A stretch of 64,000 bases of DNA from Gammaproteobacteria bacterium (GCA_024510845.1 JANEMA010000007.1:514-64513); one strand, 5' to 3'; counted from the first letter of the stretch, positions 1,783 to 16,633 are shown. The notes: a model not told the origin generated them from the letters alone. Made by a program: numbers and translations.

Positions 1783-2372
1783 CGCACCTTGGTCTTGGTG
1801 ATCTTGCCCTTGTCGGTCTTGGCCTCTTCGAGCAGGCCGTCCTCGCCTGAATGCTCTTCGATGTAGCTCTCCAGTTCCTGCGCGGCGGCGTCGGCCTCGG
1901 CCTGGAGCCGGTCGATGTGCTTTTGCTCGTCTGCGAAGTAGCGGGTAACGATGAGCGCGGGGGGGATGAGGTCGGTCTTGTATTTCTTGCGGCCGATGGT
2001 GAGGTCCGGGGTCTCCTTGTGCTTCCGACCCTTCTCGGCCACCAGCTCGCGGGGTCTGGCGGCGGCCTGCCAGCCGTCCTGGACGATGGCGTAGACGTCG
2101 TCCTGCAGGGTCTCGGCCCAGTAGTCCATGAGGTGCTGGTAGACGGCGTAGGCGTCGATGAGGGGCGCGCCTTCGAATTGTTCAAGCAGGGCCTCGGAGA
2201 GTTCGTGGATGAGCGTCTTGGGCTCGGTGTCGCCATTCAGGCCCATGAGGCCGGGCCGGTGCGGATCGCGCCAGGCGTTGAAGCGTTCGAGGATGCGCTC
2301 GCGGAAGGCGGCGAACTCGGGGTGTTCGAGGATGGTGGGCTTGATGCGCTCCGGGGGAACCCGGGGGTGGCT

Positions 2373-2402
2373 GTAGGTTGGGTTAGCGGAGCGTAACCCA
2401 AC
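2373..2402 (+). repeat. GTAG-type REP palindrome, in frame within the hsdM tail (VGLRSANPTY)
   Basis: GTAG-GTTGGGTTA-gcggagcg-TAACCCAAC. Confidence 0.85.
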
Positions 2403-2431
2403 GGGGTCGGTGGGTCGGTCGGGTTGTTGTG

Positions 2432-2469
2432 CCCTCACCCCCGGCCCCTCTCCCAAAGGGAGAGGGGAG
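2432..2469 (+). repeat. REP-like palindrome of the CCCTCACCCC..CTCTCCC..GGGAGAGG class, in frame within the hsdM tail (SPLPLGEGPGVR)
   Basis: 10-bp perfect stem CCCCTCTCCC-aaa-GGGAGAGGGG at 2445-2467. Confidence 0.85.
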
Positions 2470-2477
2470 AAAAGCGT

Positions 2478-3920
2478 CTAGCGCAGGGTTGGGAAGACCT
2501 GCCAGTAGTCTTGCAGGGCGTCGATGTCGCGGTTGGGGATGCCGCCGCTCAAGTGGGCGTGGAGGTCGTGCAGGTCCTCGGGCTCGCTGGAATCGATGTA
2601 GCGCGGGATGTTGAGGTTGTAGTCGTTGGCCTCGATCTCGCGCAGGGGCGCGAAGCGGGCGTAGCGTGGCAGTTCCTTGCGGCTGGTGAAGACGTCCACG
2701 ATCTTGTGGATGTCGCGCTCGCGCAGGCGGTTCTTGTTGCCGTCCTTCATGAAGCCCCTGGAGGCGTCGATCATGAAGATGCCGCCCCGCTGGGGATCGG
2801 CGTTGGCGGCGGCGTGTTCCTTGTCGATGACCAGGATGCAGGCGGGGATGCCGGTGCCGTAGAACAGGTTGGCGGGCAGGCCGATGATGCCACGAATGAA
2901 GCCGCGCCGGACAAGGTTGCGGCGGATATTGGCCTCGGCCCCGCCGCGGAACAGCACGCCGTGGGGCAGGATGACCGCGCCCTTGCCGGTGCTCTTGAGC
3001 GACTTGAGGATGTGCAGCAGGAAGGCGTAGTCGCCGTTCTTGACCGGCGGGATGCCGTATTCGAAGCGGCCGTATTCGTCATGCTCGGGATCGAGGCCGT
3101 TGCTCCAGGCCTTGTAGGAGAAGGGCGGATTGGCCACGGCGTAGTCGAAGGTCTTGAGGCTGCCGTCCTTCTCCTTCCAGTGCGGGTTGGCCAGGGTGTT
3201 GCCCTGCCAGATCTCGGCGGTGGGGGCGTCGTGCAGGATCCTGTTCATGCGCGCCAGGGCGGCGGTGGCGTTGTCCATCTCCTGACCGAAGATGGAGAGT
3301 CCTCGCGGGGCCTCGTGGGCCACCTTGAGCAGCAGCGAGCCGGAACCACAGGTGGGGTCGTAGACCGACTGGTCCTGGCGGGTGTCCTTGCCGACGCCGA
3401 TGACCCTGGCCAGAATCCGCGAAACCTCGGCCGGGGTGTAGAACTGCCCCTTGCTCTTGCCCGACTCGGTGGCGAAGTGGCGCATCAGGTATTCGTAGGC
3501 GTCGCCCAGCAGATCATCGCCGTCAGCGCGGTTGGCGCGCAGGTCGATGGTCTCGAAGATGGCGATGAGCTTCGAGAGCCGGTCCACCATCTCCTTGCCC
3601 TTGCCGAGCTTGTCCTCATCGTTGAAGTCGGCGACGTCGATGACGCCCTTCAGGTCGTTCTCCTCGGCCAGGCGGCCGATGATCTTGTTGATTCTGTCGC
3701 CGATCTCCTTGTCGCCCTTGAGGCGCGCCATGTCGTCGAAGGAGCCGCCCTCGGGCACCAGGATCAGCGCCCTGGGGTCGCCGGCGTACTTGTCGGAAAC
3801 GTATTTGACGAACAGCAGGGTCAGCACATAGTCCTTGTACTGGGAGGCGTCCATGCCACCGCGCAGCTCGTCGCAGGACTGCCAGAGGGAGGAGTAGAGT
3901 TCGGATTTCTTCAGGGCCAT
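2478..3920 (-). CDS. hsdM: Type I R-M DNA methyltransferase subunit M, catalytic part (480 aa, ends at an amber codon)
   Basis: MALKKSELYSSLWQSCDELRGGMDASQYKDY; GQFYTP; DPTCGSG (motif I); NPPF (motif IV); YNLNIPRYID. Confidence 0.95.
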   Translation of the reverse strand: MALKKSELYSSLWQSCDELRGGMDASQYKDYVLTLLFVKYVSDKYAGDPRALILVPEGGSFDDMARLKGDKEIGDRINKIIGRLAEENDLKGVIDVADFNDEDKLGKGKEMVDRLSKLIAIFETIDLRANRADGDDLLGDAYEYLMRHFATESGKSKGQFYTPAEVSRILARVIGVGKDTRQDQSVYDPTCGSGSLLLKVAHEAPRGLSIFGQEMDNATAALARMNRILHDAPTAEIWQGNTLANPHWKEKDGSLKTFDYAVANPPFSYKAWSNGLDPEHDEYGRFEYGIPPVKNGDYAFLLHILKSLKSTGKGAVILPHGVLFRGGAEANIRRNLVRRGFIRGIIGLPANLFYGTGIPACILVIDKEHAAANADPQRGGIFMIDASRGFMKDGNKNRLRERDIHKIVDVFTSRKELPRYARFAPLREIEANDYNLNIPRYIDSSEPEDLHDLHAHLSGGIPNRDIDALQDYWQVFPTLR

Positions 3921-4060
3921 GGTGGTTCGATCGTTGGTATGTGGGAAAAGACCGGGTCTGCAGGGCTTCGTCACGCCCGCGCTGAAACCTGGCACGAAAC
4001 CTCGTGACCACGGCAGCCCGCCATTGCGCGGGGGCTTGCCGGCGCTCCCCTCCTGCGGGG

Positions 4061-4285
4061 TCATTCCTCTTTGACACGCTGGACCGGTTCGCCGATCCCG
4101 CAATCGAAGTATTCGTACAACTCGTCCAGCACATCGGTCGTGGTGTTGTAGCCACCGGTGTTCTGGATCTTCGACAGCATCGTGCGGTGAATGCCCGTCC
4201 CCTTCGCAATCTCGTCGGGCGTTACGCGCCGCCCCACGCGAAATGGCCGGTCGGCGATCGGCTCGCGCAGGCGAAATCCCGACAT
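4061..4285 (-). CDS. Small Cro/C1-type (XRE) helix-turn-helix protein
   Basis: MSGFRLRE..RRVTPDEIAKGTGIHRTMLSKIQNTGGYNTTTDVLDELYEYFDC. Confidence 0.75.
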   Translation of the reverse strand: MSGFRLREPIADRPFRVGRRVTPDEIAKGTGIHRTMLSKIQNTGGYNTTTDVLDELYEYFDCGIGEPVQRVKEE

Positions 4286-4679
4286 TTCTTCGCGGCGGAG
4301 AAGGTGGCAGGCAAGGGAGAAGGATGTCCGGGCCGATGAGCACGCAGGCCTCGCCCCACGCGAGACCGGAGGGTGGACCCGGGGTGTCCCACCTTGTTCG
4401 ATCCTGGCGTTCTCTTCCCGTCTGTTACGCCGGCAGGATGCGGCAACCAGGTTGGCATCGATGATTCGACCCCTGCGTAACCGGTACGCCGGCAACCAGA
4501 ACCTGGCATCGAGCCCGGCCAAACAGCTCATCGACAAGATCCGCTTTACTCGATAGCTTCCCGGAACAACCGTCCAATCCGGTTCCTCATCGCGTATTCT
4601 CCGGATACACTGGCGCAGGTTGCGGGGAGAGTTCCACACGAAACGACGAAGAATCTGAATTCAGGATTCATTTTCATCG

Positions 4680-5060
4680 TTAGATATGTCGCTTTGCGAT
4701 ATATACCATTCCGTACCCTACCTCTGGTTCTCCATACAAAAGGATGTCTTCGATTGTCCCTTTCTCCACCTTGAACCACATGATGTTAGGCCAGGGTGGT
4801 ACATTGTCGTTGACCCAGCCTTGGCTCCAGCTGTCTTCCCGAAGTCCCTTGCGGCTCATCATCAGGCCCCGCGATAAGTTGGGACTACCCGCAATACCAA
4901 TCCATTCGGCATTGTCCAGGTTTTTGATCCTAGACAGGGATATCCACTGCTCGTTGCACAGATAGATGGGGAATGTTTCGATTCCGAGATTCCTCAGGTC
5001 AGGTTCCATCAGAGTCTTTAACGCATCGATCTCAATTTCTGTCTTTCTATTTTCTTTCAT
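4680..5060 (-). CDS. Hypothetical protein, AT-rich orphan (126 aa)
   Basis: ATG-started ORF with natural composition in an AT-rich patch; no recognisable motif. Confidence 0.55.
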   Translation of the reverse strand: MKENRKTEIEIDALKTLMEPDLRNLGIETFPIYLCNEQWISLSRIKNLDNAEWIGIAGSPNLSRGLMMSRKGLREDSWSQGWVNDNVPPWPNIMWFKVEKGTIEDILLYGEPEVGYGMVYIAKRHI

Positions 5061-5079
5061 TTGTGTCCCCTTCTGTGTT

Positions 5080-5638
5080 GACAGACCATTGAAAACAACC
5101 CGACCTTAGCCCGATTCGCCTGTTTCCAGGCACACCACCCTCCTCGAGCCGGGCCATCGACATGCCGCCGGCCCCGGATTGCGCATCCCAACGATGACCT
5201 TGACCCGGCCGAGGCATTCCTCGATCCGCTTGCGGATCGTCTGGCTGATCCTGCAACCGACATGAAGTGCGTCCATCGAAAAGTCAACGAACCAGCGAAA
5301 CAGCAGGTTGTGGTCGATCTGCTCCAGCGACTGACATTTGCTGCGGAGGGTGTAGAGCACCATCGGCAGCCGGGCTCGCCGCAGCTTCTCCGGCGGGGTA
5401 GCGTCATGGCCATGGTCGGAGCAGAGGGCGTTGAACTCTGCATCCAGTTCCTCCGATGCGGCATCGACCATGACACGTATCGGGCGCAACGGGTGATCCC
5501 TGGGTACCCACGATTCCTGGCTGACCGGCTGAACAGCGTCTCTTGCTGGATATCCGTGCCTCGCATCAGCAATATCACCCCAATCGATACGTTCAGGTCG
5601 ATATTGCAGAATTCCAGGGAGGGGTTCAACGACCTGTT
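5080..5638 (-). mobile_element. Internally deleted, frameshifted IS5-family element relic
   Basis: MRGTDIQQETLFS, RPIRVMVDAA...PPEKL...NLLFRWFV joined directly to the C-terminal SQTIRKRIEEC; degenerate ends ACAGACCATTGAA and TTCAACGACCTGT. Confidence 0.85.
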
Positions 5639-5755
5639 ACGACAAAGCGTGCGAGAGATCTTGCCCGGGCATGGAGAGCGTTAATCGACGCTCGTGTGCT
5701 GGCACTGTCCGGGGCACTTTATCGATAGAGCCGGAATCTCCCTCCTCACCCGGTT

Positions 5756-6748
5756 TTACCCCACCGTCTGATAGTACAGGTTCTGCGGATGCCTGGCTTC
5801 GGCAAAGAAATACCAGCGCTCGGCCAGCAGACCGGTGTACTGGGCAAGAAAGGCCAGTACCGGAAGATAACGGGACTCGAGCGTATTACTGGCCGCGAGC
5901 AGCGCTACCGGCACCGCGAACACCATCACCAGGAAGAACAGGCGTACCACCTCCACGACGGAGCTGCTCTTGCCGTGGAAGTATTCCCTGGTATTGAAGG
6001 AACCACCCATGAAACCCATAGAACGCTGGGTGATCCTGGCATGACGAATGCCCAGTGCCGAACGCATGTCGCTCTTGTGCTTGATGCGCTGATTGCGCAG
6101 CATCGACCAGAAGCGGGAGACAAAGGCCATGATGGTGAACACAACCGCCCAGGTACCGTAGAAGCCCACCAGGTCCACTCTGGTCCAGGCCGAGAAGGCT
6201 GCGGTCAGGGTAAAGCCCGAGGCCAGCCCGAAGAGAATGAAGTTCACCACCGTCAGCGGCGAGTACCATTCCTGCAGGAAGCGCAGACTGGCGTAGATCA
6301 TGGCGGTGGAGATGAACAGCGTGATTGCCATCAGCACACCCAGAGTAGCGATGATCAGGCTGGGGTCGACCGGGATCACACCCTTGATGGTGAACAGGGT
6401 GTCTGTCCATCCCATGTCGTGCACCACACCGTAGAGGAACACCAGGAACATAAAGGCCGGCAGGGCGATCAGCTCGCGCGACAGCCAGGAGGTGCGCCAC
6501 TGGGTGACACCACGCCAGGCGCGGGTGATGAAATAGCCCGGCTTGCCCAGATGGAACACTGCCGCCACCAGTCCTCCACCAAGCAGCAGCAGGGCGATCA
6601 GGCTGCCCGCCGCATAGAAGGTGACCGAGTCCTGCGGCTCGAGCAGATTGGCCATGGAATACACCTGACCGGTGACCAGAGCCATGAACATGCCCTGGGC
6701 CGCACCGATCAGTGTGGTCAGAAAGATCACGGAAAAGGCCGGATGCAT
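5756..6748 (-). CDS. soeC: Sulfite dehydrogenase membrane anchor (DmsC-type)
   Basis: MHPAFSVIFLTTLIGAAQG..SVFHLG-like AVFHLGKP..WRTSWLSRE..ERWYFFAEARHPQNLYYQ; operon context. Confidence 0.9.
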   Translation of the reverse strand: MHPAFSVIFLTTLIGAAQGMFMALVTGQVYSMANLLEPQDSVTFYAAGSLIALLLLGGGLVAAVFHLGKPGYFITRAWRGVTQWRTSWLSRELIALPAFMFLVFLYGVVHDMGWTDTLFTIKGVIPVDPSLIIATLGVLMAITLFISTAMIYASLRFLQEWYSPLTVVNFILFGLASGFTLTAAFSAWTRVDLVGFYGTWAVVFTIMAFVSRFWSMLRNQRIKHKSDMRSALGIRHARITQRSMGFMGGSFNTREYFHGKSSSVVEVVRLFFLVMVFAVPVALLAASNTLESRYLPVLAFLAQYTGLLAERWYFFAEARHPQNLYYQTVG

Positions 6749-6777
6749 TTTCGTTGCCTCTCAACAAAGTTGTCTGA

Positions 6778-6956
6778 ACCGCCAAGGACACCAAGGAACC
6801 CGGAGTCCCTCATTGTCTCTACTCCGACAGTCTCCATTCGGCATCGTGACCATCTGGAATCACGACACGCTGTCTCGAATCCGCATTCGGACATGGCCAG
6901 GCTCACAAAGGGTCCACAACCCGAACCCTTTGCGTAACCTTCGCGTCCTTTGCGGT
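6778..6956. repeat. ~180-bp insert bounded by imperfect inverted arms built of ~9-nt repeats
   Basis: Left arm ACCGCCAAGGACACCAAGG vs reverse complement of right arm ACCGCAAAGGACGCGAAGG (16/19 identical). Confidence 0.65.
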
Positions 6957-6972
6957 CGATAATCACTCAAAC

Positions 6973-7695
6973 TCAGAATGTAACGTCGTCCAGGGTATCG
7001 CCCAGTGCCGCTGGCAGCGGGTGCTCCTTGTCGAGCGGGTTGTCCACGCGTTCCAGTTCATCCTCGAAGATCTGGATGCGGGTCTTGTGCCGCGGCAGGT
7101 AGTGATTGGCCGGCTGGGTACCCCACTCGGGCATCAGCTGGTAACCACCACGCTCGCGGATCGCCACCGAGACTTCGGAGTCGGAATCGTGTACGTCACC
7201 GAACAGGCGTGCACTGGTCGGACAGGCGAGTACACAGGCCGGCTTGCGCTCGGACTCGGGCTTGCTCCGATCGGTGATGCGATCGATACACAGGGTGCAT
7301 TTCTTCATCACCTTCTGCATCTCGTCGAGTTCACGCACACCGTAGGGACAGGCCCAGGAGCAATACTTGCAGCCGATGCACTTGTCGTAATCGACCAGCA
7401 CCACGCCGTTGTCCTTGCGCTTGTACGAGGCCCCGGTGGGACAGACGGGCACACAGGGCGGTTCTTCGCAGTGCAGGCAGCTCTTGGGAAAGTGCACCGT
7501 CTCGGTGTTCGGATATTCTCCTACCTCGAAGGTCTGCACCCGGTTGAAAAAGGTGCCGGTGGGATCGGCATCATAGGGACGCTGATTCACCATGGGGCCC
7601 GCCCAGCCGGAGGTATTCCACTCCTTGCACGAGGTCACACAGGCATGGCAGCCCACACAGACGTTCAGATCGATGACCAAAGCCAGTTGTGTCAT
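6973..7695 (-). CDS. soeB: Sulfite dehydrogenase Fe-S subunit
   Basis: CVGCHACVTSC, CLHCEEPPCVPVCPTGA, CIGCKYCSWACPYG, CTLC..PACVLACP. Confidence 0.92.
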   Translation of the reverse strand: MTQLALVIDLNVCVGCHACVTSCKEWNTSGWAGPMVNQRPYDADPTGTFFNRVQTFEVGEYPNTETVHFPKSCLHCEEPPCVPVCPTGASYKRKDNGVVLVDYDKCIGCKYCSWACPYGVRELDEMQKVMKKCTLCIDRITDRSKPESERKPACVLACPTSARLFGDVHDSDSEVSVAIRERGGYQLMPEWGTQPANHYLPRHKTRIQIFEDELERVDNPLDKEHPLPAALGDTLDDVTF

Positions 7696-7717
7696 GTCTT
7701 CTCTCTCCCACCAGGCA

Positions 7718-10624
7718 TCAATCGATGCCTGTCTTCTTGCGGAACATGCCCGCGAAATAGGCCTGCCAGCGGCCGCGTTTGGGATCCATGCCCGGCACCC
7801 GGCGCTGCGGCCTGAATTGCGGGAAGGTACGCCTGGGCTCGGATTCGGCAGCCTTGTAGACCTTCACCCGCACGTCGTACCAGGCGGCCTGACCAGTGAT
7901 CGGATCGGAATTGGAGATGTGTTCACCCGACTTGCAGGGCGGCAGTTCCTCGCTGATCACGTGGTTGAGCAGGAAGCCCTTCTGCGATTCGTTGGCCCTG
8001 GGTGAGAGTCCCCAGGCACCGGCGGCCTTGCCGATGGCATTCCAGGTCCAGACCGTGCCCGGCTCGACCGACTCGGAGAAACGCACCATACAGCGCACCT
8101 TGCCGTGGGGTGACTCGACCCAGATCCAGTCACCGTCCTCGAAGCCATGGGCCTCGCCCTGCTTCGGGCTGACGTACAGATAGTTGTGGGTATGGATCTG
8201 CCGCAGCCAAGCATTCTGGCTGTCCCAGGAGTGATACATGGCCATCGGGCGCTGGGTTACCGCATTGAGTGGAAACTCCTGAGTGTCGATCAGGTTGGTC
8301 TCCAGTGTCTCGTGATAGAAAGGCAGCGGGTCCATGAAGGTGATGATGCGCTGCCGCAGCCGCGCCGGTGGCTGCCTTCCCGGGCGCTTGCCCTGGGCCG
8401 CCAGACGGAACTTCTGCAACACCTCGGAATAGATGTGTACATTGATCGGCTCGGCGTAGCGGGTCATGCCATGCGACCGCGCCCACTCCAGGTAGCCCTT
8501 GTTCCAGTTGCGCATGTACTGGTACGACTTGGGCAGTTCGTAATGGAATACACAGTTGTTCTTGGCGTACATCTCCCACTGACGCGGGTTGGGCTCTCCC
8601 TTGAGGAATTTCTCGCCGCCCTTGCCACGCCAGCCGGCGAGGAAGCCGATACCGGAACCGGGCGATGTCTCGAAGTTGACGATGAAATCCGGGTAGTCAC
8701 GAAACTTGCGACTGCCGTCCTCGTCGACGAACGCCGGCAGCCTGAGCCGCGAACCCAGCTCTACCAACACGTCCTGAAAGGGCTTGCACTCACCCTTCGA
8801 CGCTACCACCGGGATACGCACTGAATCGACCGGCCCGTCATACTCGGAGATCGGCCGGTCGAGCATGGACATGGCGTCATACCGCTCCAGATAGGTGGTA
8901 TCCGGCAGCACCAGGTCGGCGAAGGCCACCGTCTCGGAGTGAAAGGCGTCGCACACGATCAGGAAGGGGATCTTGTACTCGCCGTTCTCGTCCTTGTCGA
9001 TGAGCATCTCGCGCACGTTGGCGGTATTCATCGACGAGTTCCAGGCCATGTTGGCCATGAAGAGCAACAGGGTATCGATCTTGTAGGGATCACCGCGCCA
9101 GGCATTGGTGATGGCATTGTGCATCAGACCGTGCACCGACAGGGGGTACTCCCAGGAAAAGGCCTTGTCGATGCGCAGCGGTTCGCCATCTTCGTCCACG
9201 AACAGGTCGTTGGGATCGGCCGGCCAGCCCAGCGGCATACCGTTGAGCGGCGTGTTGGGCCGTACGTCCTCACGGCTCTTCGGCGGCTTGGGGCATGGCG
9301 GGATGGGCCGCGGGAAGGGTGCCTTGTGACGGAAACCTCCCGGGGTATCGATGGTATTGAGCATGGTCATCAACACGCTCATGGCACGGATGGTCTGGAA
9401 ACCGTTGGAGTGTGCAGCCAGACCACGCATGGCGTGGAAAGCAACCGGACCGCCCTTCACGCTCTGGTGTTCCTTGCCCCAGACATCGGTCCACTGGATG
9501 GGCAGCTCTATCTTCTGATCACGCGCAGTCACACCCATCTCGTGCGCCAGACGGCGGATGGTCTCGGCGGGGATGCCGGTGATACCCTCGGCCCACTCGG
9601 GGCTGTACTCGTCCACCCGCTCCTTGAGCAGCTGGAAAGCGGTCTTCACAGGCTTGCCATCGATCTCGTACTCACCGAGCAGGAACGGATCGGCGCTTTC
9701 GCTGCGCACGTCCACCGGGCGATTGGTGACACGATCCCACCACAGCTTGTTCTGAGAGTCGAAACACCCGTCTTCCACCGAACGGTCGGTGCGGATGAAC
9801 ATGCCATAGTCGTCCGAGGCCTCGTCCAGGTTGATGAGCTCGGCGGCATTGGTGTAGTTGATGAGGAATTCGCGATCGTACAGGCCCTGGACGATCAACT
9901 CGCGGATGATGGCCAGAAACAGAGCGCCGTCGGTGCCCGGACGGATGGGCACCCACTCGTCGGCAATGGCCGAGTAACCGGTGCGCACCGGGTTGATGGA
10001 AATAAAGCGCCCGCCACGCCGCTTGAACTTGGAGATGGCGATCTTCATCGGGTTGGAGTGATGGTCCTCGGCGGTACCGATCATCACAAACAACTTGGCG
10101 CGGTCGAGATCGGGGCCGCCAAACTCCCAGAAGGAGCCGCCGATACTGTAGATCATGCCGGCAGCCATGTTGACCGAGCAGAAACCGCCGTGCGCTGCGT
10201 AGTTGGGCGTACCGAACTGCTTGGCGAACAGACCGGTCAGCGCCTGCATCTGATCACGACCGGTAAAAATGGCAAACTTGCCCGGGTCTGTCTCCCGCAG
10301 GTGAGACAGGCGCTCTTCCATGATCCCGAAGGCACGCTCCCAGGAGATGGCCTCGAAATCCGCCCTGCCCCGCTCGGCGCCCTTGCGCCGCAGCAACGGC
10401 CTGGTCAGGCGCGCTGGCGAGTACTGCTTCATGATACCCGAGGCACCCTTGGCGCAAATCACCCCCTTGTTGAGCGGATGTTCGGGGTTGCCCTCGATAT
10501 GGCGCACTTCGTCGTCACGCAAGGTGACACGGATGCCACAACGGCAGGCACACATGTAGCAGGTGGTGTGCTTGACCTCGATGCGGCCAGTCTCACTCTC
10601 TTTGTATTCAGTCGGATCCAGCAT
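7718..10624 (-). CDS. soeA: Sulfite dehydrogenase molybdopterin subunit (no Tat leader)
   Basis: TTCYMCACRCGI..C Fe-S motif, GRDQMQALTG..FGTPNYAAHGGFCSVNMA, YHSWDSQNAWLRQI; start taken at MLDPTEY. Confidence 0.92.
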   Translation of the reverse strand: MLDPTEYKESETGRIEVKHTTCYMCACRCGIRVTLRDDEVRHIEGNPEHPLNKGVICAKGASGIMKQYSPARLTRPLLRRKGAERGRADFEAISWERAFGIMEERLSHLRETDPGKFAIFTGRDQMQALTGLFAKQFGTPNYAAHGGFCSVNMAAGMIYSIGGSFWEFGGPDLDRAKLFVMIGTAEDHHSNPMKIAISKFKRRGGRFISINPVRTGYSAIADEWVPIRPGTDGALFLAIIRELIVQGLYDREFLINYTNAAELINLDEASDDYGMFIRTDRSVEDGCFDSQNKLWWDRVTNRPVDVRSESADPFLLGEYEIDGKPVKTAFQLLKERVDEYSPEWAEGITGIPAETIRRLAHEMGVTARDQKIELPIQWTDVWGKEHQSVKGGPVAFHAMRGLAAHSNGFQTIRAMSVLMTMLNTIDTPGGFRHKAPFPRPIPPCPKPPKSREDVRPNTPLNGMPLGWPADPNDLFVDEDGEPLRIDKAFSWEYPLSVHGLMHNAITNAWRGDPYKIDTLLLFMANMAWNSSMNTANVREMLIDKDENGEYKIPFLIVCDAFHSETVAFADLVLPDTTYLERYDAMSMLDRPISEYDGPVDSVRIPVVASKGECKPFQDVLVELGSRLRLPAFVDEDGSRKFRDYPDFIVNFETSPGSGIGFLAGWRGKGGEKFLKGEPNPRQWEMYAKNNCVFHYELPKSYQYMRNWNKGYLEWARSHGMTRYAEPINVHIYSEVLQKFRLAAQGKRPGRQPPARLRQRIITFMDPLPFYHETLETNLIDTQEFPLNAVTQRPMAMYHSWDSQNAWLRQIHTHNYLYVSPKQGEAHGFEDGDWIWVESPHGKVRCMVRFSESVEPGTVWTWNAIGKAAGAWGLSPRANESQKGFLLNHVISEELPPCKSGEHISNSDPITGQAAWYDVRVKVYKAAESEPRRTFPQFRPQRRVPGMDPKRGRWQAYFAGMFRKKTGID

Positions 10625-11032
10625 TCGGGTAGGCCCTGGTTGAAGGAATCTCGGAACGGTTTTACCGGGACGCCACACACGCCCAAAGAGAACATCATAA
10701 TATTCGCGTTCTCTAATTAATCAAACCCCGACAGGGCTTTCGGGGCCATATTCTACGTAACTCATTGAACAGAAAGATTTTCCTGAGTTTTCAGGGTTTT
10801 TGCAGACCGGATACCGAACATCTTTCGGATCACACGGTATCCATCCCGGTCGGACTTTCAGCCCCAGAAATAGGACTGGGCATCACGCAGGCGGCCCCGG
10901 CAATCCGTACCGGCCGGCTCGCATGCGTCAGCCAACCAGGAAACAACAGTGGAAGAAAACGGACGACAACAGGCGTGGGCGACCTCCAGGGCTTCGCTCC
11001 CTCTATTCGGCCACGGCGGGCAATTCCTGAAG

Positions 11033-11587
11033 TCAGGGCAAAACGGGATTCAAGGCACCCATGGGATCGGCAATGCGGCGCACATCCTGTCGCATACTCG
11101 AGATGTTGCCGGTCATCTGCCTCATGTTCGGCGCGATGGTGCCCACCGCCTGCTGCAGCCGAGTCATGTCCTGGTTGATCTGGTGCATGCTATCAGCCAT
11201 CGATGACATGTCCTCGCGCATCCCCGGCAGACGCTCGGTCACCTGCACCATGTGCCCGGTGATCGGTGTCATCTGCTGCATGTGGGTCTGAAAAGACACC
11301 ACGTGCCCAGCTATCAGGTTCATATCGCGATCCACCTGACCCAGTCGACTCACCATGGATTCCATGTTGCCAACGATGCGGTCCAGGTCTTTGTACAACA
11401 CCCGAACGTAGTAGAGATTGAATACCGCGAGCACAATCAACAGGATGGAAATCACCGCAATCACCGTATCGGTGATGCGAAAGTGATATTCGCGCTCGTC
11501 GAAAGTAATCTGGGTCTCGCGTCCAATACGCGCCATCACCTCGACGATGGGACGGCGGGGATCGAGTTCCGGTGGTGGCATCTCCAT
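11033..11587 (-). CDS. Single-TM protein with Met-rich heptad coiled coil, paralog 1
   Basis: TM VIAVISILLIVLAVFNLYY followed by about 15 heptads with Met at core positions. Confidence 0.8.
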   Translation of the reverse strand: MEMPPPELDPRRPIVEVMARIGRETQITFDEREYHFRITDTVIAVISILLIVLAVFNLYYVRVLYKDLDRIVGNMESMVSRLGQVDRDMNLIAGHVVSFQTHMQQMTPITGHMVQVTERLPGMREDMSSMADSMHQINQDMTRLQQAVGTIAPNMRQMTGNISSMRQDVRRIADPMGALNPVLP

Positions 11588-11602
11588 GGGGCGACTACCT
11601 GC

Positions 11603-12184
11603 TCAGGGGAAGGGGAACATGCGGTTGAACGTCCGTGCCGGCTTGGACAAGCGACGCATTTCGTGGCCCATGATACCCACCTCGCCGTTCATGCTGTGGA
11701 TGGTGGCGGCAATACCGGCCATCTCGCCCTTGACCGTCGACAATTCGCGCCGCACCCCGGCCACGTCTCCTCGCATGCGCCGCATATGGCCCTGCATCAC
11801 GGCCATCTCCTGGTCCATCTTTGCCGTCGCCTCACCAACCTGTCCCATCAGGGCCACCTGCTTCTCCATGACACCCATGGCCTGGGTGATGTTGTCCATG
11901 CGTATGGTGACCGATTCGAAATGCACGTTCATGGCGACCACCATATCGGACATGCGATTGATCTGCGAGGACAAGGTGAGCAGCAACACCAGGATGGAAA
12001 CGGCGATGCCACCGAGCAGGATGAGACCGGCACGAATGGTCCAGTTGAGCCGGTTGCCCAACTGGGTCTTCATCTCGATCTGCGCCAGCATGATGCCTTC
12101 GAAGGAGCTGAGGGCTCGCAGGTACTGGGCCTGGAGCACGCTCTCGTCGGCACTGGCCTTGAGTTCTGGCAGTTCGGATGCCAT
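11603..12184 (-). CDS. Single-TM protein with Met-rich heptad coiled coil, paralog 2
   Basis: TM AGLILLGGIAVSILVLLLTL followed by Met heptads; similar C-terminus to paralog 1. Confidence 0.8.
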   Translation of the reverse strand: MASELPELKASADESVLQAQYLRALSSFEGIMLAQIEMKTQLGNRLNWTIRAGLILLGGIAVSILVLLLTLSSQINRMSDMVVAMNVHFESVTIRMDNITQAMGVMEKQVALMGQVGEATAKMDQEMAVMQGHMRRMRGDVAGVRRELSTVKGEMAGIAATIHSMNGEVGIMGHEMRRLSKPARTFNRMFPFP

Positions 12185-12203
12185 GGATGGGTGGATTCCG
12201 GGA

Positions 12204-13226
12204 TTATTGTGGTACACAGGCGCGCCCAGCCGAGTGCACGCCCACCGTCACGGGAATGTTCGCCCAAGCATCGTCACGGGTCAAATGGCCAGGGCTTCGC
12301 CGCCTGCCATTTCCCGCTCGGCTTCCCTCACGCAATGCCGAGAGGTCCCAGCCACAACGCTTCTCCACCAGGTCGAAGAGATAGTCGTCCGACTTGAGTT
12401 TCCAGGTCAGACGCGGATCGGTATCACCCGGCTTGGGGCGCTGATCCCACAACAGGGCGGGTGAGAGGCGGCAGCGCTTGCGATAGTGCGAAGGATAACG
12501 GATCTCCGCCAGTTTCTTGCGTCCCCAAACCCTGTCGCGGCGTGGCGCCTCCCCCCGCTGCGCCACCGTGATGACCAGACCTTCGCCACGATAACGGATG
12601 CGTGGGCCGTGGCGCGCATGACGGTTGCGATTGAAGTCGATGGGCTGTTCGTCCAGCACACCATCGACAATCTCCGCGGTCGCCGCATCGAACACCACCG
12701 ATTCGCCGGTTGGCAGGTGCACACGCAGGCGATCGCCCTCGCGCACCAGCGAAGGCAACTGACGGCGTGGAAAGAAATGCAGCTCACGGAACATGTTGTC
12801 GTGACTGTAACGCTTGCTGATGCGCACATCGTCCAGCACCGACAGAAAGATTTCCTCACGCGCCCGATCCGGATACTGAAAGAGGAATTCCCGGCGTGCC
12901 CCCGTACCTTCGAGGCCCCGCGGATTGATCCGCTGCGACCCCTTGTTTACCAGGGCGAAACCGACCACTTTCTCCTCCCGACAGGGTGAATAGGTATGGA
13001 GCTTGATACCAGGTACCCGCCCCATACTGATCGCACGATCGTAACGGTAGGACTCACGCACCAGATCACGCTCGGGCGGCAGATCGCTCTTCAGCTGCTC
13101 GAATACCGTATCCACCGGCGGTTTTTGCAACGGTGGATGTGGTGGCTCGGCTTCTGGGACCTTGGGCGGTGTGCCACAGGAAGCAAGAAACAGGGTAAAG
13201 GCAAGCAGAACAGCCTTGCGTGGCAT
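12204..13226 (-). CDS. Putative lipoprotein of unknown function
   Basis: MPRKAVLLAFTLFLASC lipobox; long ORF. Confidence 0.7.
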   Translation of the reverse strand: MPRKAVLLAFTLFLASCGTPPKVPEAEPPHPPLQKPPVDTVFEQLKSDLPPERDLVRESYRYDRAISMGRVPGIKLHTYSPCREEKVVGFALVNKGSQRINPRGLEGTGARREFLFQYPDRAREEIFLSVLDDVRISKRYSHDNMFRELHFFPRRQLPSLVREGDRLRVHLPTGESVVFDAATAEIVDGVLDEQPIDFNRNRHARHGPRIRYRGEGLVITVAQRGEAPRRDRVWGRKKLAEIRYPSHYRKRCRLSPALLWDQRPKPGDTDPRLTWKLKSDDYLFDLVEKRCGWDLSALREGSRAGNGRRRSPGHLTRDDAWANIPVTVGVHSAGRACVPQ

Positions 13227-13415
13227 ATGGTCGATTCTCCATATCGTAGTGATGACCCGAACATCCAACCCTGCCAGGGTGCTCTCCACACCCTAGCAGG
13301 CATTCCCACCCAAACCTCATGACGGCTCCGACAGCCTCGCCGTGCACTATTACCACTTGGAGATACCGGAAAAGCATGTTCTTCCTGCGCTGCACCACAA
13401 GGCTCGGGAAGATCC

Positions 13416-15302
<1,887 letters not shown>

Positions 15303-15715
15303 AAAATCGGACACCTCGTTGTGAATCGGTCGCCATGTTCGCATATCCAGACCCCCGGCCTGACATCGGAGAACCCTGCCGACGAAAAAATCACCTCGTG
15401 ATCGCGAGAGGGCATCGGGCACCCCGTGAAGCATCCTCCACACTCAACAGGCAAAGGAATGCCTGCCATACAGGTACATCAGGGAATTATCACGCGAGGA
15501 TCAAAAGGGCATCTCACACGAAAACGCGCCTTCGGCAGATGACGATAGGACACGGTTGCGGCAATTTGGCACCCCAGCGTCGTCGGTGCCAACAATGCGG
15601 CCAGAGCCGTACTCGGTGGCGGCCCCTCACACGCCAGCCAGGCGGCAACCGCCCCATCCAGCCGCCGATAAGCGACCGCCGCCTCGAAACCACTCACAGG
15701 TGAGCAGGCAATTGT

Positions 15716-15916
15716 TCAATGTACCGAATCGGCGACAACCCCGTGCCGCCCACCTGGCCCACTGTTGCTGCCACCACCATCGGTGACCAGATCACCCTCG
15801 TGCAGACGGGACTTGAAATGTGCCAGGTTGCGCAACTTTTCCAGAGGCCCGGTGCGCTTGAGTGCCTTGAACAGGCGCGCACGGCTGGCGCCGGCTACCA
15901 GTACCCAGATGCTCAG
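15716..15916 (-). pseudogene. Host-attachment (AtsE/baeRF12-like) protein relic
   Basis: SIWVLVAGASRARLF...LAHFKSRLHEGDLVTDGGG; start appears as CTG after a GAAGGGGG RBS; stops after ~66 codons. Confidence 0.65.
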
Positions 15917-16093
15917 AGTCGACCCCCTTCTGAGTTTTATGGTCCTCGGGACGATGCCACAGCCCCTCTGGTAGCAGATTTGTGGACCGGCGGAATTGAT
16001 CCGCAACAAGGGGTACGCAAGATCCGCATCATTGAGCGCACTGTCGAATGCGGTACACTGATACCCGTTCGATCCATTGCACGGAACGCCCCC

Positions 16094-16633
16094 ATGCCCA
16101 GCAGGAACAGCCATCTCGCCCTCTCCGCCCTTGGCAAGGACCGTCCCGGCATCATCGACCACCTGACCCGCGCCATTCTCGATGCGGACTGCAACATCCT
16201 CGACACCCGCATGGCCGTGCTCAGTGGTGACTTTGCCATCCTGATGTCGATAGAGGCACCCTGGGACAAGCTGGCGCGGCTCGAGAGTCAGATCCCCGAA
16301 CTGCAACGCGAGCTGGGACTGACCATCATTGTCGACCGCACCGAGCCGGATCCCCGCAAGGTGGACCTGCTGCCCTACGGCGTGGATGTAGTCGCGCTGG
16401 ATCAACCCGGCATCGTGCACAATCTGGCTGCTTTCTTCTCACAGCGCAGTATCAACATAGAGGACATGACCACCAGCAGCTATGCCGCGGCGCACACCGG
16501 CACACCCATGTTCGCCGTGCGCATGACCGTGGGCATCCCTGCGACCATGCACATCACCAGCCTGCGTGAGGAATTCATGGACTTCTGCGATCAGCTGAAT
16601 CTCGATGCCGTACTCGAACCCGTCAAGGGATAA
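16094..16633 (+). CDS. gcvR: Glycine cleavage system repressor (tandem ACT domains)
   Basis: LSALGKDRPGII..CNILDTRM; VVALDQPGIVHNLAAFF. Confidence 0.9.
   Translation: MPSRNSHLALSALGKDRPGIIDHLTRAILDADCNILDTRMAVLSGDFAILMSIEAPWDKLARLESQIPELQRELGLTIIVDRTEPDPRKVDLLPYGVDVVALDQPGIVHNLAAFFSQRSINIEDMTTSSYAAAHTGTPMFAVRMTVGIPATMHITSLREEFMDFCDQLNLDAVLEPVKG

What the first reader, a model, noticed from the sequence alone, without database searches (positions are those of the whole stretch)
11033..12184. Tandem paralogous membrane proteins with Met-filled heptad coiled coils beside soeABC
Seen: two adjacent genes share one architecture: short N-region, one TM helix, then ~110 residues of heptads with Met at core positions (e.g. 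MSSMADS MHQINQD MTRLQQA; DQEMAVM QGHMRRM). Both end in RR-x3-P-x4-N-x2-3-P. About a tenth of residues are Met. They are co-oriented directly upstream of the sulfite-oxidation operon and downstream of an unknown lipoprotein. Inference: a hetero-oligomeric periplasmic stalk with a thioether-lined core, which could bind soft metals, scavenge oxidants, or contact hydrophobic sulfur. I cannot assign a named family.
Basis: partly seen in the sequence, partly recalled or inferred. Interest (0 to 1): 0.62.

Follow-up and report, generated by a model that had tools for sequence, protein, structure and literature searches.

The report
Methionine-zipper membrane stalk protein pair
Two neighbouring genes encode membrane-anchored proteins whose long periplasmic helix has a core made mostly of methionine; the family is unstudied, occurs almost only in bacteria that store elemental sulfur, and in relatives is built into efflux-pump operons, so it is a candidate part of the unknown sulfur-handling machinery.

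Summary
Genes B (11603-12184) and A (11033-11587), both on the minus strand, are paralogues. Each has a short N-terminal region, one TM helix, and about 123 residues of unbroken heptads. Core positions are 36-39% Met and only 5-12% Leu. Both end in RR-x3-P-x4-N-x3-P. AlphaFold2 gives one continuous helix for each, and the positive-inside rule puts the coil in the periplasm.

No Pfam, NCBIfam or PDB family is met; DUF948 is the nearest and scores below its cut-off.

The soeABC adjacency holds only in close relatives. Three other links are robust:
- Among 80 gammaproteobacterial genomes, 24 of 25 with sulfur-globule-protein genes carry the family, against 7 of 55 without (p = 4e-13).
- In a sister class (probably Magnetococcia), the orthologous pair directly follows OMF-MFP-RND in one operon, in 16 of 19 loci.
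- A third paralogue, also in this genome, sits in a cluster of RND pump, secreted low-complexity or Sgp proteins, and a ParA-like ATPase.

The pumps are AcrB-like and lack the CusA methionine relay.

Best reading (about 0.5): a hetero-oligomeric periplasmic stalk that works with hydrophobe-type RND pumps in sulfur-storing bacteria and may contact zero-valent sulfur. The ligand and the oligomeric state are inferred, not shown.

The parts
11603..12184 (-). Gene B ('pair1' orthologous group): 193-aa bitopic methionine-zipper protein
   Evidence: ORF. 359 homologues, nearly all 193 aa. AF2 gives a single helix, residues 9-189, pLDDT 87. Lies in a 98%-supported clade with the first gene of the RND-coupled pairs of the sister class.
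11969..12031 (-). Gene B transmembrane helix (residues 52-72, AGLILLGGIAVSILVLLLTLS). The N-terminal side is cytoplasmic and is the most conserved part of the protein.
   Evidence: Mean K/R count 3.55 in the N flank against 1.05 in the C flank. Invariant residues R23 to N47.
11642..11968 (-). Gene B periplasmic heptad region with a Met/Ile/Val core
   Evidence: Period 3.5. Core is 36% Met and 5% Leu.
11606..11656 (-). Gene B C-terminal tip motif RRLSKPARTFNRMFPFP
   Evidence: P182 and P191 are invariant in the superfamily alignment. 117 of 130 representatives end in P...P.
11033..11587 (-). Gene A ('pair2' orthologous group): 184-aa bitopic methionine-zipper protein. Its ATG lies 15 nt after the stop codon of B.
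   Evidence: 58 homologues of 179-191 aa. AF2 gives a single helix, residues 11-178, pLDDT 84.
11405..11467 (-). Gene A transmembrane helix (residues 41-61)
   Evidence: Hydropathy and K/R flank counts.
11072..11392 (-). Gene A periplasmic heptad region with a Met/Val/Ile core
   Evidence: Period 3.45. Core is 38.6% Met.
11036..11080 (-). Gene A C-terminal tip motif RRIADPMGALNPVLP
12204..13226 (-). Upstream lipoprotein of unknown family (lipobox LFLASC). Its stop codon lies 19 nt before the ATG of gene B, so it is probably in the same transcript.
   Evidence: No Pfam hit. Homologues found only in L002-L004.
10679..11032 (-). 354-nt spacer between gene A and soeA. It carries a sigma-70-like site at 10724-10697 just before soeA.
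   Evidence: No terminator-like hairpin and no unusual fold. Co-transcription was not tested.
5756..10678 (-). soeABC-like operon (molybdopterin subunit 7718-10678, 4Fe-4S subunit 6973-7695, DmsC/NrfD anchor 5756-6748). A neighbour, not a conserved partner.
   Evidence: The synteny holds only in W and L002-L004.

Best explanation
Genes B and A encode an anciently duplicated pair of bitopic inner-membrane proteins. The N-terminus is cytoplasmic. The roughly 123-residue C-terminal part is one uninterrupted alpha-helix in the periplasm, about 18 nm long if straight. Its a/d core is built mainly of Met, Ile and Val (a 'methionine zipper'), and it ends in a conserved P-x4-N-x3-P tip.

I propose that B and A assemble into a hetero-oligomeric coiled-coil stalk. 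This stalk would work alongside an AcrB-like (hydrophobe/amphiphile-type) MFP-RND efflux system in bacteria that deposit zero-valent sulfur. Its flexible, thioether-rich surface would bind or guide hydrophobic sulfur (S8 or polysulfane) between membrane, pump and deposit, or at least scaffold the pump across the periplasm.

Shown here: the architecture, the Met core, the topology signal, the three orthologous groups, the phyletic tie to sulfur-globule genomes, and operon coupling to RND pumps in a sister class.

Inferred: hetero-oligomerisation, physical contact with the pump, and sulfur as the ligand.

The position next to soeABC is a lineage-specific accident of synteny.
For: Architecture and composition.

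Topology: 98 of 107 members have more K/R before the TM helix than after it, 1 the reverse. The length of the C-terminal part is held at a median of 122-126 residues in five of six groups.

Family trait: Met averages 10.2% in 130 short representatives at 50% identity, and 117 of 130 have the P...P end.

Orthology: window B falls in a 98%-supported clade with 'pair1' of the sister class. 'Single' paralogues form a 99% clade.

Operon coupling in the sister class: OMF (PF02321)-MFP-RND-pair1-pair2 in 16 of 19 pair loci, often with the RND stop codon overlapping the pair1 start. This genome keeps the orthologous pump (60% identical to the sister-class pump) at C27:20314-23547.

Phyletic pattern in 80 gammaproteobacterial genomes from about 78 genera:
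- PF17228 Sgp present: 24 of 25 carry the family. Sgp absent: 7 of 55. Fisher p = 3.6e-13.
- dsrA present: 26 of 34. dsrA absent: 5 of 46. p = 1.8e-9.

- The RND subfamily occurs in 25 of the 26 genomes found with the first (B-family) profile, against 17 of the other 54.
- 30 of 32 sister-class genomes have dsrA.

Third paralogue: it lies beside the MFP, a long-tailed RND, secreted low-complexity or Sgp proteins and a ParA-like ATPase, in both classes and in this genome.

Pump type: TM4 has the AcrB-like D-D pair, and none of the CusA methionine relay residues is present.

Precedent for a coiled coil holding S8: the tetrabrachion RHCC (PMC6555900).
Against: - In Gammaproteobacteria, including this window, the pair is never adjacent to a pump within about 8 kb.
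- Four pair-bearing gamma genomes lack a pump at 57% identity or more to the type-1 pump, and eight genomes have that pump without the family.
- Seven genomes without a detectable Sgp still carry the family, and most sister-class families lack PF17228 hits.
- No multimer model could be made, so the oligomeric state is unknown.
- Met-S8 binding has no direct precedent.
- Phyletic counts are not corrected for phylogeny, although nearly every genome is from a different family.
Confidence: 0.5

Rival explanations
1. Passive envelope scaffold or molecular ruler. The stalk only spaces or stabilises a trans-envelope complex (pump, outer-membrane contact through the Pro-rich tip). Met is chosen for core flexibility, not for ligand binding.
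For: - The helix length is conserved at 122-126 residues.
- The tip motif is conserved.
- The pair sits in an operon with a full OMF-MFP-RND system.
- In some gamma genomes the neighbours are envelope proteins (OmpA, Slp).
Against: It does not explain why Met replaces Leu at more than a third of core positions across hundreds of divergent members. It also does not explain why the family tracks sulfur-globule genomes so closely.
Confidence: 0.2
2. Soft-metal conduit or sponge. A trimeric Met zipper would stack rings of three thioethers, as in the Ctr1 filter or CusF/SilE sites. It would pass or buffer Cu(I)/Ag(I) for an efflux pump.
For: - Met at a/d positions with His frequent at non-core positions (4.7-6.6%).
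- The MFP gives sub-threshold matches to CusB/CzcB-type adaptors.
- An ArsR-family regulator lies before the type-1 pump operon in this genome.
- The operon layout recalls cusCFBA.
Against: - The associated RND pumps lack all CusA methionine relay residues and have the AcrB-type D-D proton relay.
- They score higher on multidrug/HAE models than on the CusA/CzcA model.
- Nothing links copper handling to Sgp/Dsr genomes, whereas sgp genes lie inside the related clusters.
- The proteins contain no Cys.
Confidence: 0.12
3. Sacrificial oxidant sink. Periplasmic Met residues scavenge reactive species and are repaired by MsrPQ, as described for the methionine-rich peptide MrpX of perchlorate reducers.
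For: High Met content in the periplasm. The MrpX precedent is mentioned in PMC5358917. Sedimenticola relatives includechlorate reducers (from my own knowledge).
Against: Met sits in the buried a/d stripe of a long helix, not in an exposed disordered peptide. No msrPQ or chlorate genes recur next to family members in about 70 loci.
Confidence: 0.05
4. Cytoplasmic-facing DUF948/YoxC-like or MCP-like coiled coil that serves signalling or stress functions unrelated to pumps or sulfur.
For: - Weak hits to DUF948, DUF1664 and MCPsignal.
- The profile matches the Thermotoga MCP in PDB at E 6e-10.
- JGI and NCBI names such as YoxC, MCP and DUF948.
Against: - All hits are below the curated cut-offs.
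- There is no helical hairpin (a single helix).
- The positive-inside signal points the coil outward.
- Such hits are typical of composition-driven coiled-coil matches; designed coiled coils score equally well.
Confidence: 0.05
5. Dedicated partner of SoeABC: a membrane tether or sulfite-related factor co-expressed with the sulfite dehydrogenase.
For: Same strand, 354 nt upstream of soeA in the window and in three relatives.
Against: The linkage is absent in all other lineages. soeA has its own promoter-like site. SoeABC faces the cytoplasm, whereas the coil faces the periplasm (SoeA has no Tat motif).
Confidence: 0.03

Closest known systems
DUF948 (Pfam PF06103) / COG4768 'YoxC' proteins of Firmicutes
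   Same: An N-terminal TM helix followed by a heptad coiled coil of about 100 residues. NCBI names the single-type paralogue 'DUF948 domain-containing protein'.
   Different: Scores are 16.7-23.3 bits against a cut-off of 37.2. DUF948 is itself uncharacterised. The Met-dominated core, the P-x4-N-x3-P tip, the tandem pair and the pump/sulfur context are all specific to this family.
Accessory proteins encoded in RND efflux operons (CusF in cusCFBA; AcrZ with AcrB)
   Same: Small proteins encoded with OMF-MFP-RND genes. CusF is a Met-using periplasmic protein.
   Different: There is no sequence or fold relation. These proteins are 18-nm bitopic helices, not a beta-barrel (CusF) or a 49-aa TM peptide (AcrZ). 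The pumps lack the CusA Met relay. In this window the pair is unlinked from its pump.
Sulfur globule proteins SgpA/B/C (PF17228) and SgpD of Allochromatium vinosum
   Same: Same organisms and, for the single-type paralogue, the same gene clusters. sgpD lies beside a hydrophobe/amphiphile exporter gene (PMC10386293).
   Different: Sgp proteins have cleaved Sec signals and Gly/Tyr- or Pro-repeat low-complexity sequences. SgpD is confined to Chromatiaceae. The family here has an uncleaved TM anchor with a conserved cytoplasmic head and gives no PF17228 hit.
Tetrabrachion right-handed coiled coil (RHCC) of Staphylothermus marinus
   Same: A long coiled coil whose non-polar interior holds cyclo-octasulfur (PMC6555900). 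It is a functional precedent for a coiled coil that binds S8.
   Different: It is archaeal, part of an S-layer, and a four-stranded right-handed coil with an 11-residue repeat. Its cavities are aliphatic, not Met-lined. No homology.
Ctr1 / CusF / SilE 'Mets' motifs
   Same: Thioether ligands spaced i, i+3/i+4 on helices.
   Different: Those sites are short and bind Cu(I)/Ag(I). Here about 14 consecutive heptads carry Met, and the pump partners are not metal-type.

Membership tests
DUF948 (PF06103) | Whole-protein score at or above Pfam's gathering cut-off (37.2 bits) | tested here: not met
   B scores 17.7 bits and A 16.7 bits. The third paralogue scores 23.3 bits.
DUF948 (PF06103) | N-terminal TM helix followed by a coiled coil of about 90 residues | tested here: met
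Methyl-accepting chemotaxis signalling domain (PF00015) | Score above cut-off, and an antiparallel helical hairpin | tested here: not met
   12.1 bits against a cut-off of 34.6. AF2 gives one unbroken helix.
Sulfur globule proteins, SGP (PF17228) | Profile match, and a cleavable signal peptide with Gly/Tyr-rich repeats | tested here: not met
   No hit at E <= 1. The TM helix is internal, at residues 41-72, and preceded by a conserved cytoplasmic region.
SgpD (Alvin_2515) | Sec signal peptide, regularly spaced Pro repeats, restriction to Chromatiaceae | tested here: not met
   Description in PMC10386293, compared with the sequences and the distribution. The SgpD sequence itself was not aligned.
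IcmG/DotF (NF038218) | Score at or above 200 bits | tested here: not met
   24.6 and 21.1 bits.
CusCFBA-type Cu(I)/Ag(I) efflux system (as partner system) | RND subunit with the M573/M623/M672 triad and transmembrane Met pairs; D-A rather than D-D in TM4 | tested here: not met
   Alignment with E. coli CusA and AcrB. The triad positions read V/F/E, and TM4 reads VDDAIVVVEN as in AcrB.
RND-pump accessory subunit (functional class, not a sequence family) | Encoded in one operon with MFP and RND genes | tested here: inconclusive
   Met for the orthologues in the sister class (16 of 19 loci). Not met in this window or in any gammaproteobacterial pair locus.
RND-pump accessory subunit (functional class, not a sequence family) | Physical binding to the pump | not testable with these tools
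   No multimer prediction or interaction data were available.

The most novel reading that the evidence does not exclude
The methionine-zipper proteins (the B/A pair and the single paralogue) are the parts that touch sulfur in a dedicated machine for an extracytoplasmic organelle. In this reading, AcrB-like pumps extract hydrophobic zero-valent sulfur from the membrane. The Met-lined coiled coils act as an 18-nm rail or conduit that holds S8/polysulfane and anchors the Sgp-coated globule to the inner membrane. A cytoplasmic ParA-like ATPase then positions the whole assembly through the pump's RRGIRLK tail. The pair linked to the OMF-containing pump would handle export of surplus sulfur.
Probability: 0.22. 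Interest if true: 0.9.

Novelty: new variant of a known kind. Interest (0 to 1): 0.7.

Why it matters
How sulfur-oxidising bacteria deposit, hold and re-mobilise insoluble zero-valent sulfur in the periplasm is a long-standing open question. Only the coat proteins (Sgp) are known. This family gives a concrete set of candidates that can be deleted. It tracks sulfur-globule genomes more tightly than dsrA does, and it is wired to hydrophobe-type RND pumps and, through a paralogue, to ParA-like positioning ATPases and sgp genes. Structurally, a coiled coil whose core is more than one third methionine across hundreds of divergent members is unusual. It would be of interest for coiled-coil design and for thioether-ligand chemistry.

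Tried and rejected
- Pfam, NCBIfam and PDB profile searches gave only sub-threshold or generic coiled-coil hits. A Foldseek search was not run because a single helix gives meaningless matches.
- SgpD identity was rejected from the published description.
- soeABC partnership was rejected as lineage-specific synteny.
- A CusA-like copper pump partner was rejected by residue comparison.
- Recurrent neighbours of the gammaproteobacterial pair: none was found except an ABC-F ATPase in 6 loci.
- Literature word searches for methionine-rich coiled coils in sulfur oxidisers, and for pumps or ParA with sulfur globules, found nothing relevant. PMC3754752 is not held.
- Cluster look-up gave no names.
- The 2,700-5,200-aa proteins in the representative search are low-Met repetitive coiled coils and therefore false positives.
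- I infer that the sister class is Magnetococcia from one genome that is a single 4,719,581-bp contig. From memory, that is the size of Magnetococcus marinus MC-1. Supporting this, 30 of 32 of these genomes carry dsrA, often in two copies, as described for Magnetococcales in PMC6783814. A direct check of the number failed.

Full report
WHAT IS THERE

On the minus strand, gene B (11603-12184, 193 aa) and gene A (11033-11587, 184 aa) lie 15 nt apart. B starts 19 nt after the stop codon of a lipoprotein gene. A ends 354 nt before a three-subunit molybdoenzyme operon: a molybdopterin subunit with no Tat motif, a 4Fe-4S subunit and a DmsC/NrfD anchor. This operon is SoeABC-like.

The two proteins contain 10.4% and 9.8% Met. 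Both lie at the 99th percentile or above for long ORFs of the window, whose median is 1.8%.

They are paralogues. BLASTP gives E 5e-7. Profile-profile comparison gives 98.3% probability, ungapped over the last 124 columns.

ANATOMY

Each family is well conserved. B has 359 hits, almost all of 193 aa. A has 58 hits of 179-191 aa.

Behind the single TM helix, hydrophobicity and Met occupancy both oscillate with a period of 3.45-3.5 residues. Conserved hydrophobic columns follow 3-4-3-4 spacing. Their make-up is:
- A family: Met 38.6%, Val 20.7%, Ile 18.6%, Leu 11.8%.
- B family: Met 36.1%, Ile 25.0%, Val 21.5%, Leu 5.4%.
Met is not among the ten commonest residues at non-core positions.

AlphaFold2 with the family alignments predicts one continuous helix for each protein: residues 11-178 (pLDDT 84) and 9-189 (pLDDT 87).

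In 98 of 107 family members there are more Lys/Arg before the TM helix than after it; in one the reverse holds. The part behind the TM helix has a median length of 122-126 residues in five of six groups. So the coil should be periplasmic and about 18 nm long if straight.

The whole superfamily ends in a P-x4-N-x3-P tip. Two prolines are invariant in 31 diverse sequences, and 117 of 130 representatives at 50% identity end in P...P. The cytoplasmic head of B is its most conserved part.

NO NAMED FAMILY

Pfam and NCBIfam give only sub-threshold coiled-coil hits: DUF948 at 17.7 and 16.7 bits against a cut-off of 37.2, plus DUF1664, IcmG/DotF and MCPsignal. PDB profile searches return designed coiled coils, an MCP, viral fusion proteins and similar entries. 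Public names are 'hypothetical', 'YoxC', 'MCP', 'translation initiation factor 2' and 'DUF948 domain-containing'.

A full scan of 1.84 billion representatives found 232 at E <= 1e-30 and 1885 at E <= 1e-10. The short ones average 10.2% Met. The giant hits are low-Met repetitive proteins and are false positives.

THE soeABC LINK IS LOCAL

The order lipoprotein-B-A-soeABC is shared only with three Sedimenticola-like relatives (L002-L004). In other lineages the B-A pair is kept, but the neighbours differ: MinCDE, AAA_22, GGDEF/EAL, OmpA/Slp. soeA has its own promoter-like site.

THREE ORTHOLOGOUS GROUPS AND THEIR REAL PARTNERS

A broad profile (A5) found a third paralogue in this genome, at C9:8130-8627. 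It also found the family in nearly every genome of a sister class of the same phylum. One of those genomes is a single 4,719,581-bp contig, which I recall as the size of Magnetococcus marinus MC-1. Of these genomes, 30 of 32 carry dsrA, often twice, as published for Magnetococcales. The identification is an inference.

A maximum-likelihood tree separates three groups:
- 'pair1', which holds window B in a 98% clade together with the sister-class pair1 genes.
- 'pair2', which holds window A.
- 'single', a 99% clade.

In the sister class the pair directly follows an outer-membrane factor (PF02321), a membrane fusion protein and an RND permease. This holds in 16 of 19 loci, often with overlapping stop and start codons. 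This genome keeps the orthologous pump, 60% identical, at C27:20314-23547, but unlinked from the pair.

The 'single' group lies at the end of a second cluster, made up of:
- an MFP;
- a long RND whose low-complexity cytoplasmic tail ends in an R-R-G-I-R-L-K motif;
- DUF4412-like and secreted low-complexity proteins, including PF17228 sulfur-globule proteins in at least seven genomes;
- a ParA/MinD-type ATPase;
- the Met-zipper gene.

This cluster is present in both classes and in this genome.

PHYLETIC PATTERN

In 80 gammaproteobacterial genomes from about 78 genera:
- The family is present in 24 of 25 genomes with PF17228 and in 7 of 55 without (Fisher p = 3.6e-13).
- It is present in 26 of 34 genomes with dsrA and in 5 of 46 without (p = 1.8e-9).

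Three family-positive genomes that lack dsrA do carry sgp genes. The pump subfamily is in 25 of the 26 genomes found with the first (B-family) profile, against 17 of the other 54. These counts are not corrected for phylogeny.

WHAT KIND OF PUMP

I aligned the pumps with E. coli K-12 CusA and AcrB. The associated RNDs have V/F/E at the CusA M573/M623/M672 triad and none of the transmembrane Met pairs. Their TM4 has the AcrB-type D-D (VDDAIVVVEN). They score best, though below the cut-offs, on multidrug/HAE models. This argues against a Cus-like copper system and for a hydrophobic or amphiphilic substrate.

INTERPRETATION

Shown:
- a conserved, anciently duplicated, periplasm-facing methionine-zipper pair;
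- a family restricted largely to sulfur-storing sulfur oxidisers;
- orthologues that are operon-coupled to a tripartite AcrB-like pump;
- a paralogue embedded in a pump/ParA/Sgp cluster.

Inferred:
- B and A form a hetero-oligomeric stalk;
- the stalk works with the pump;
- its thioether-rich surface contacts zero-valent sulfur. A coiled coil that stores S8 has a precedent in tetrabrachion (PMC6555900).

I give the pump-linked, sulfur-storage-linked stalk reading about 0.5. The rivals are a ligand-free scaffold (0.2), a soft-metal conduit (0.12), an oxidant sink (0.05), a cytoplasmic DUF948/MCP-like role (0.05) and a SoeABC partner (0.03).

RELATION TO EARLIER NOTES OF THIS SCAN

After I had reached the cluster picture, a look-up showed that other agents had described the pump-ParA-(dynamin)-Sgp cluster and a 'methionine zipper' single protein in other genomes. 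These are AI notes, not independent evidence. They agree with my reading of the third paralogue.

New here:
- the tandem pair forms two separate orthologous groups;
- it is coupled to a different, OMF-containing pump operon in the sister class;
- the quantitative Sgp/dsrA association;
- the CusA/AcrB residue test.

NOVELTY

I found no paper that describes this family or its contexts. I class it as a new variant of a known kind: TM-anchored periplasmic coiled coils and RND accessory proteins. The bolder reading, a sulfur-contacting part of a globule-building machine, remains open.

Noticed in passing
L080 (own genome contig C9) 479-8627: This genome holds a third family member (8130-8627, 165 aa, 9.1% Met) at the end of a cluster. 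The cluster contains an MFP (479-1783); an RND of 1341 aa (1846-5871) with a Lys/Ala-rich tail ending RTWRGIRLN; a secreted Pro/Tyr/Gly-rich low-complexity protein (inside ORF 6126-7235, starting from the internal MKIEYIRKIFLPCLAGL...); and a ParA/MinD-like ATPase (7075-7890, with KGGSGKST).
   Followed up: partly
L044, L106, L108, L110, L111, L113, L122, L080 (C-termini of the long RND genes): All eight 'type-2' RND permeases inspected carry a 150-350-residue low-complexity cytoplasmic tail ending in a near-invariant R-(R/W)-G-I-R-L-(K/N) peptide. This could be the handle for the adjacent ParA-like ATPase.
   Followed up: partly
L126 (own genome contig C27) 2789-11548; L130 (G346): The orthologue of the sister-class pair-coupled pump (MFP 7252-8325, RND 8315-11548 in L126) is preceded by a histidine kinase, a response regulator with a PAS domain, and an ArsR-family regulator. 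The contig ends 240 nt after the RND gene. In the complete genome of the same genus, the next DNA corresponds to own contig C23, with a PF17228 sgp gene about 6 kb away.
   Followed up: partly
window 13416-15443 (-): An ABC-F ATPase (two ABC domains plus ABC_tran_CTD) lies upstream of the pair here, in three close relatives and in two distant gammaproteobacterial families (L034, L035). It is the only recurrent neighbour of the gamma pair.
   Followed up: no
window 12204-13226 (-): A lipoprotein of about 340 aa with no Pfam or NCBIfam family, found only in close relatives. Its stop codon is 19 nt before gene B, so it is probably co-transcribed.
   Followed up: no
window 11252-12397 (+) and 11547-12464 (+): Long antisense 'shadow' ORFs (381 and 305 aa) run across both genes and recur in relatives. 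They appear to be by-products of the periodic, GC-rich coding sequence on the minus strand.
   Followed up: partly
L082 (G405) 5665-6630 and 8931-16295: In the 4,719,581-bp genome, two sgp-like genes (PF17228; one at E 1.3e-17) lie directly before the ParA-like gene and the single Met-zipper gene. A 2454-aa cadherin/PKD-repeat protein is encoded convergently.
   Followed up: partly
P0339: A 653-aa relative with 10.3% Met and a lipoprotein-like N-terminus (…LSLSAC) matches the profile in six stretches. It may be a multi-repeat, lipid-anchored form of the methionine zipper.
   Followed up: no
window 10697-10724 (-): A sigma-70-like promoter match (TTGATT-16-TATTAT) lies about 20 nt upstream of the soeA start. 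This suggests that soeABC is transcribed on its own.
   Followed up: no
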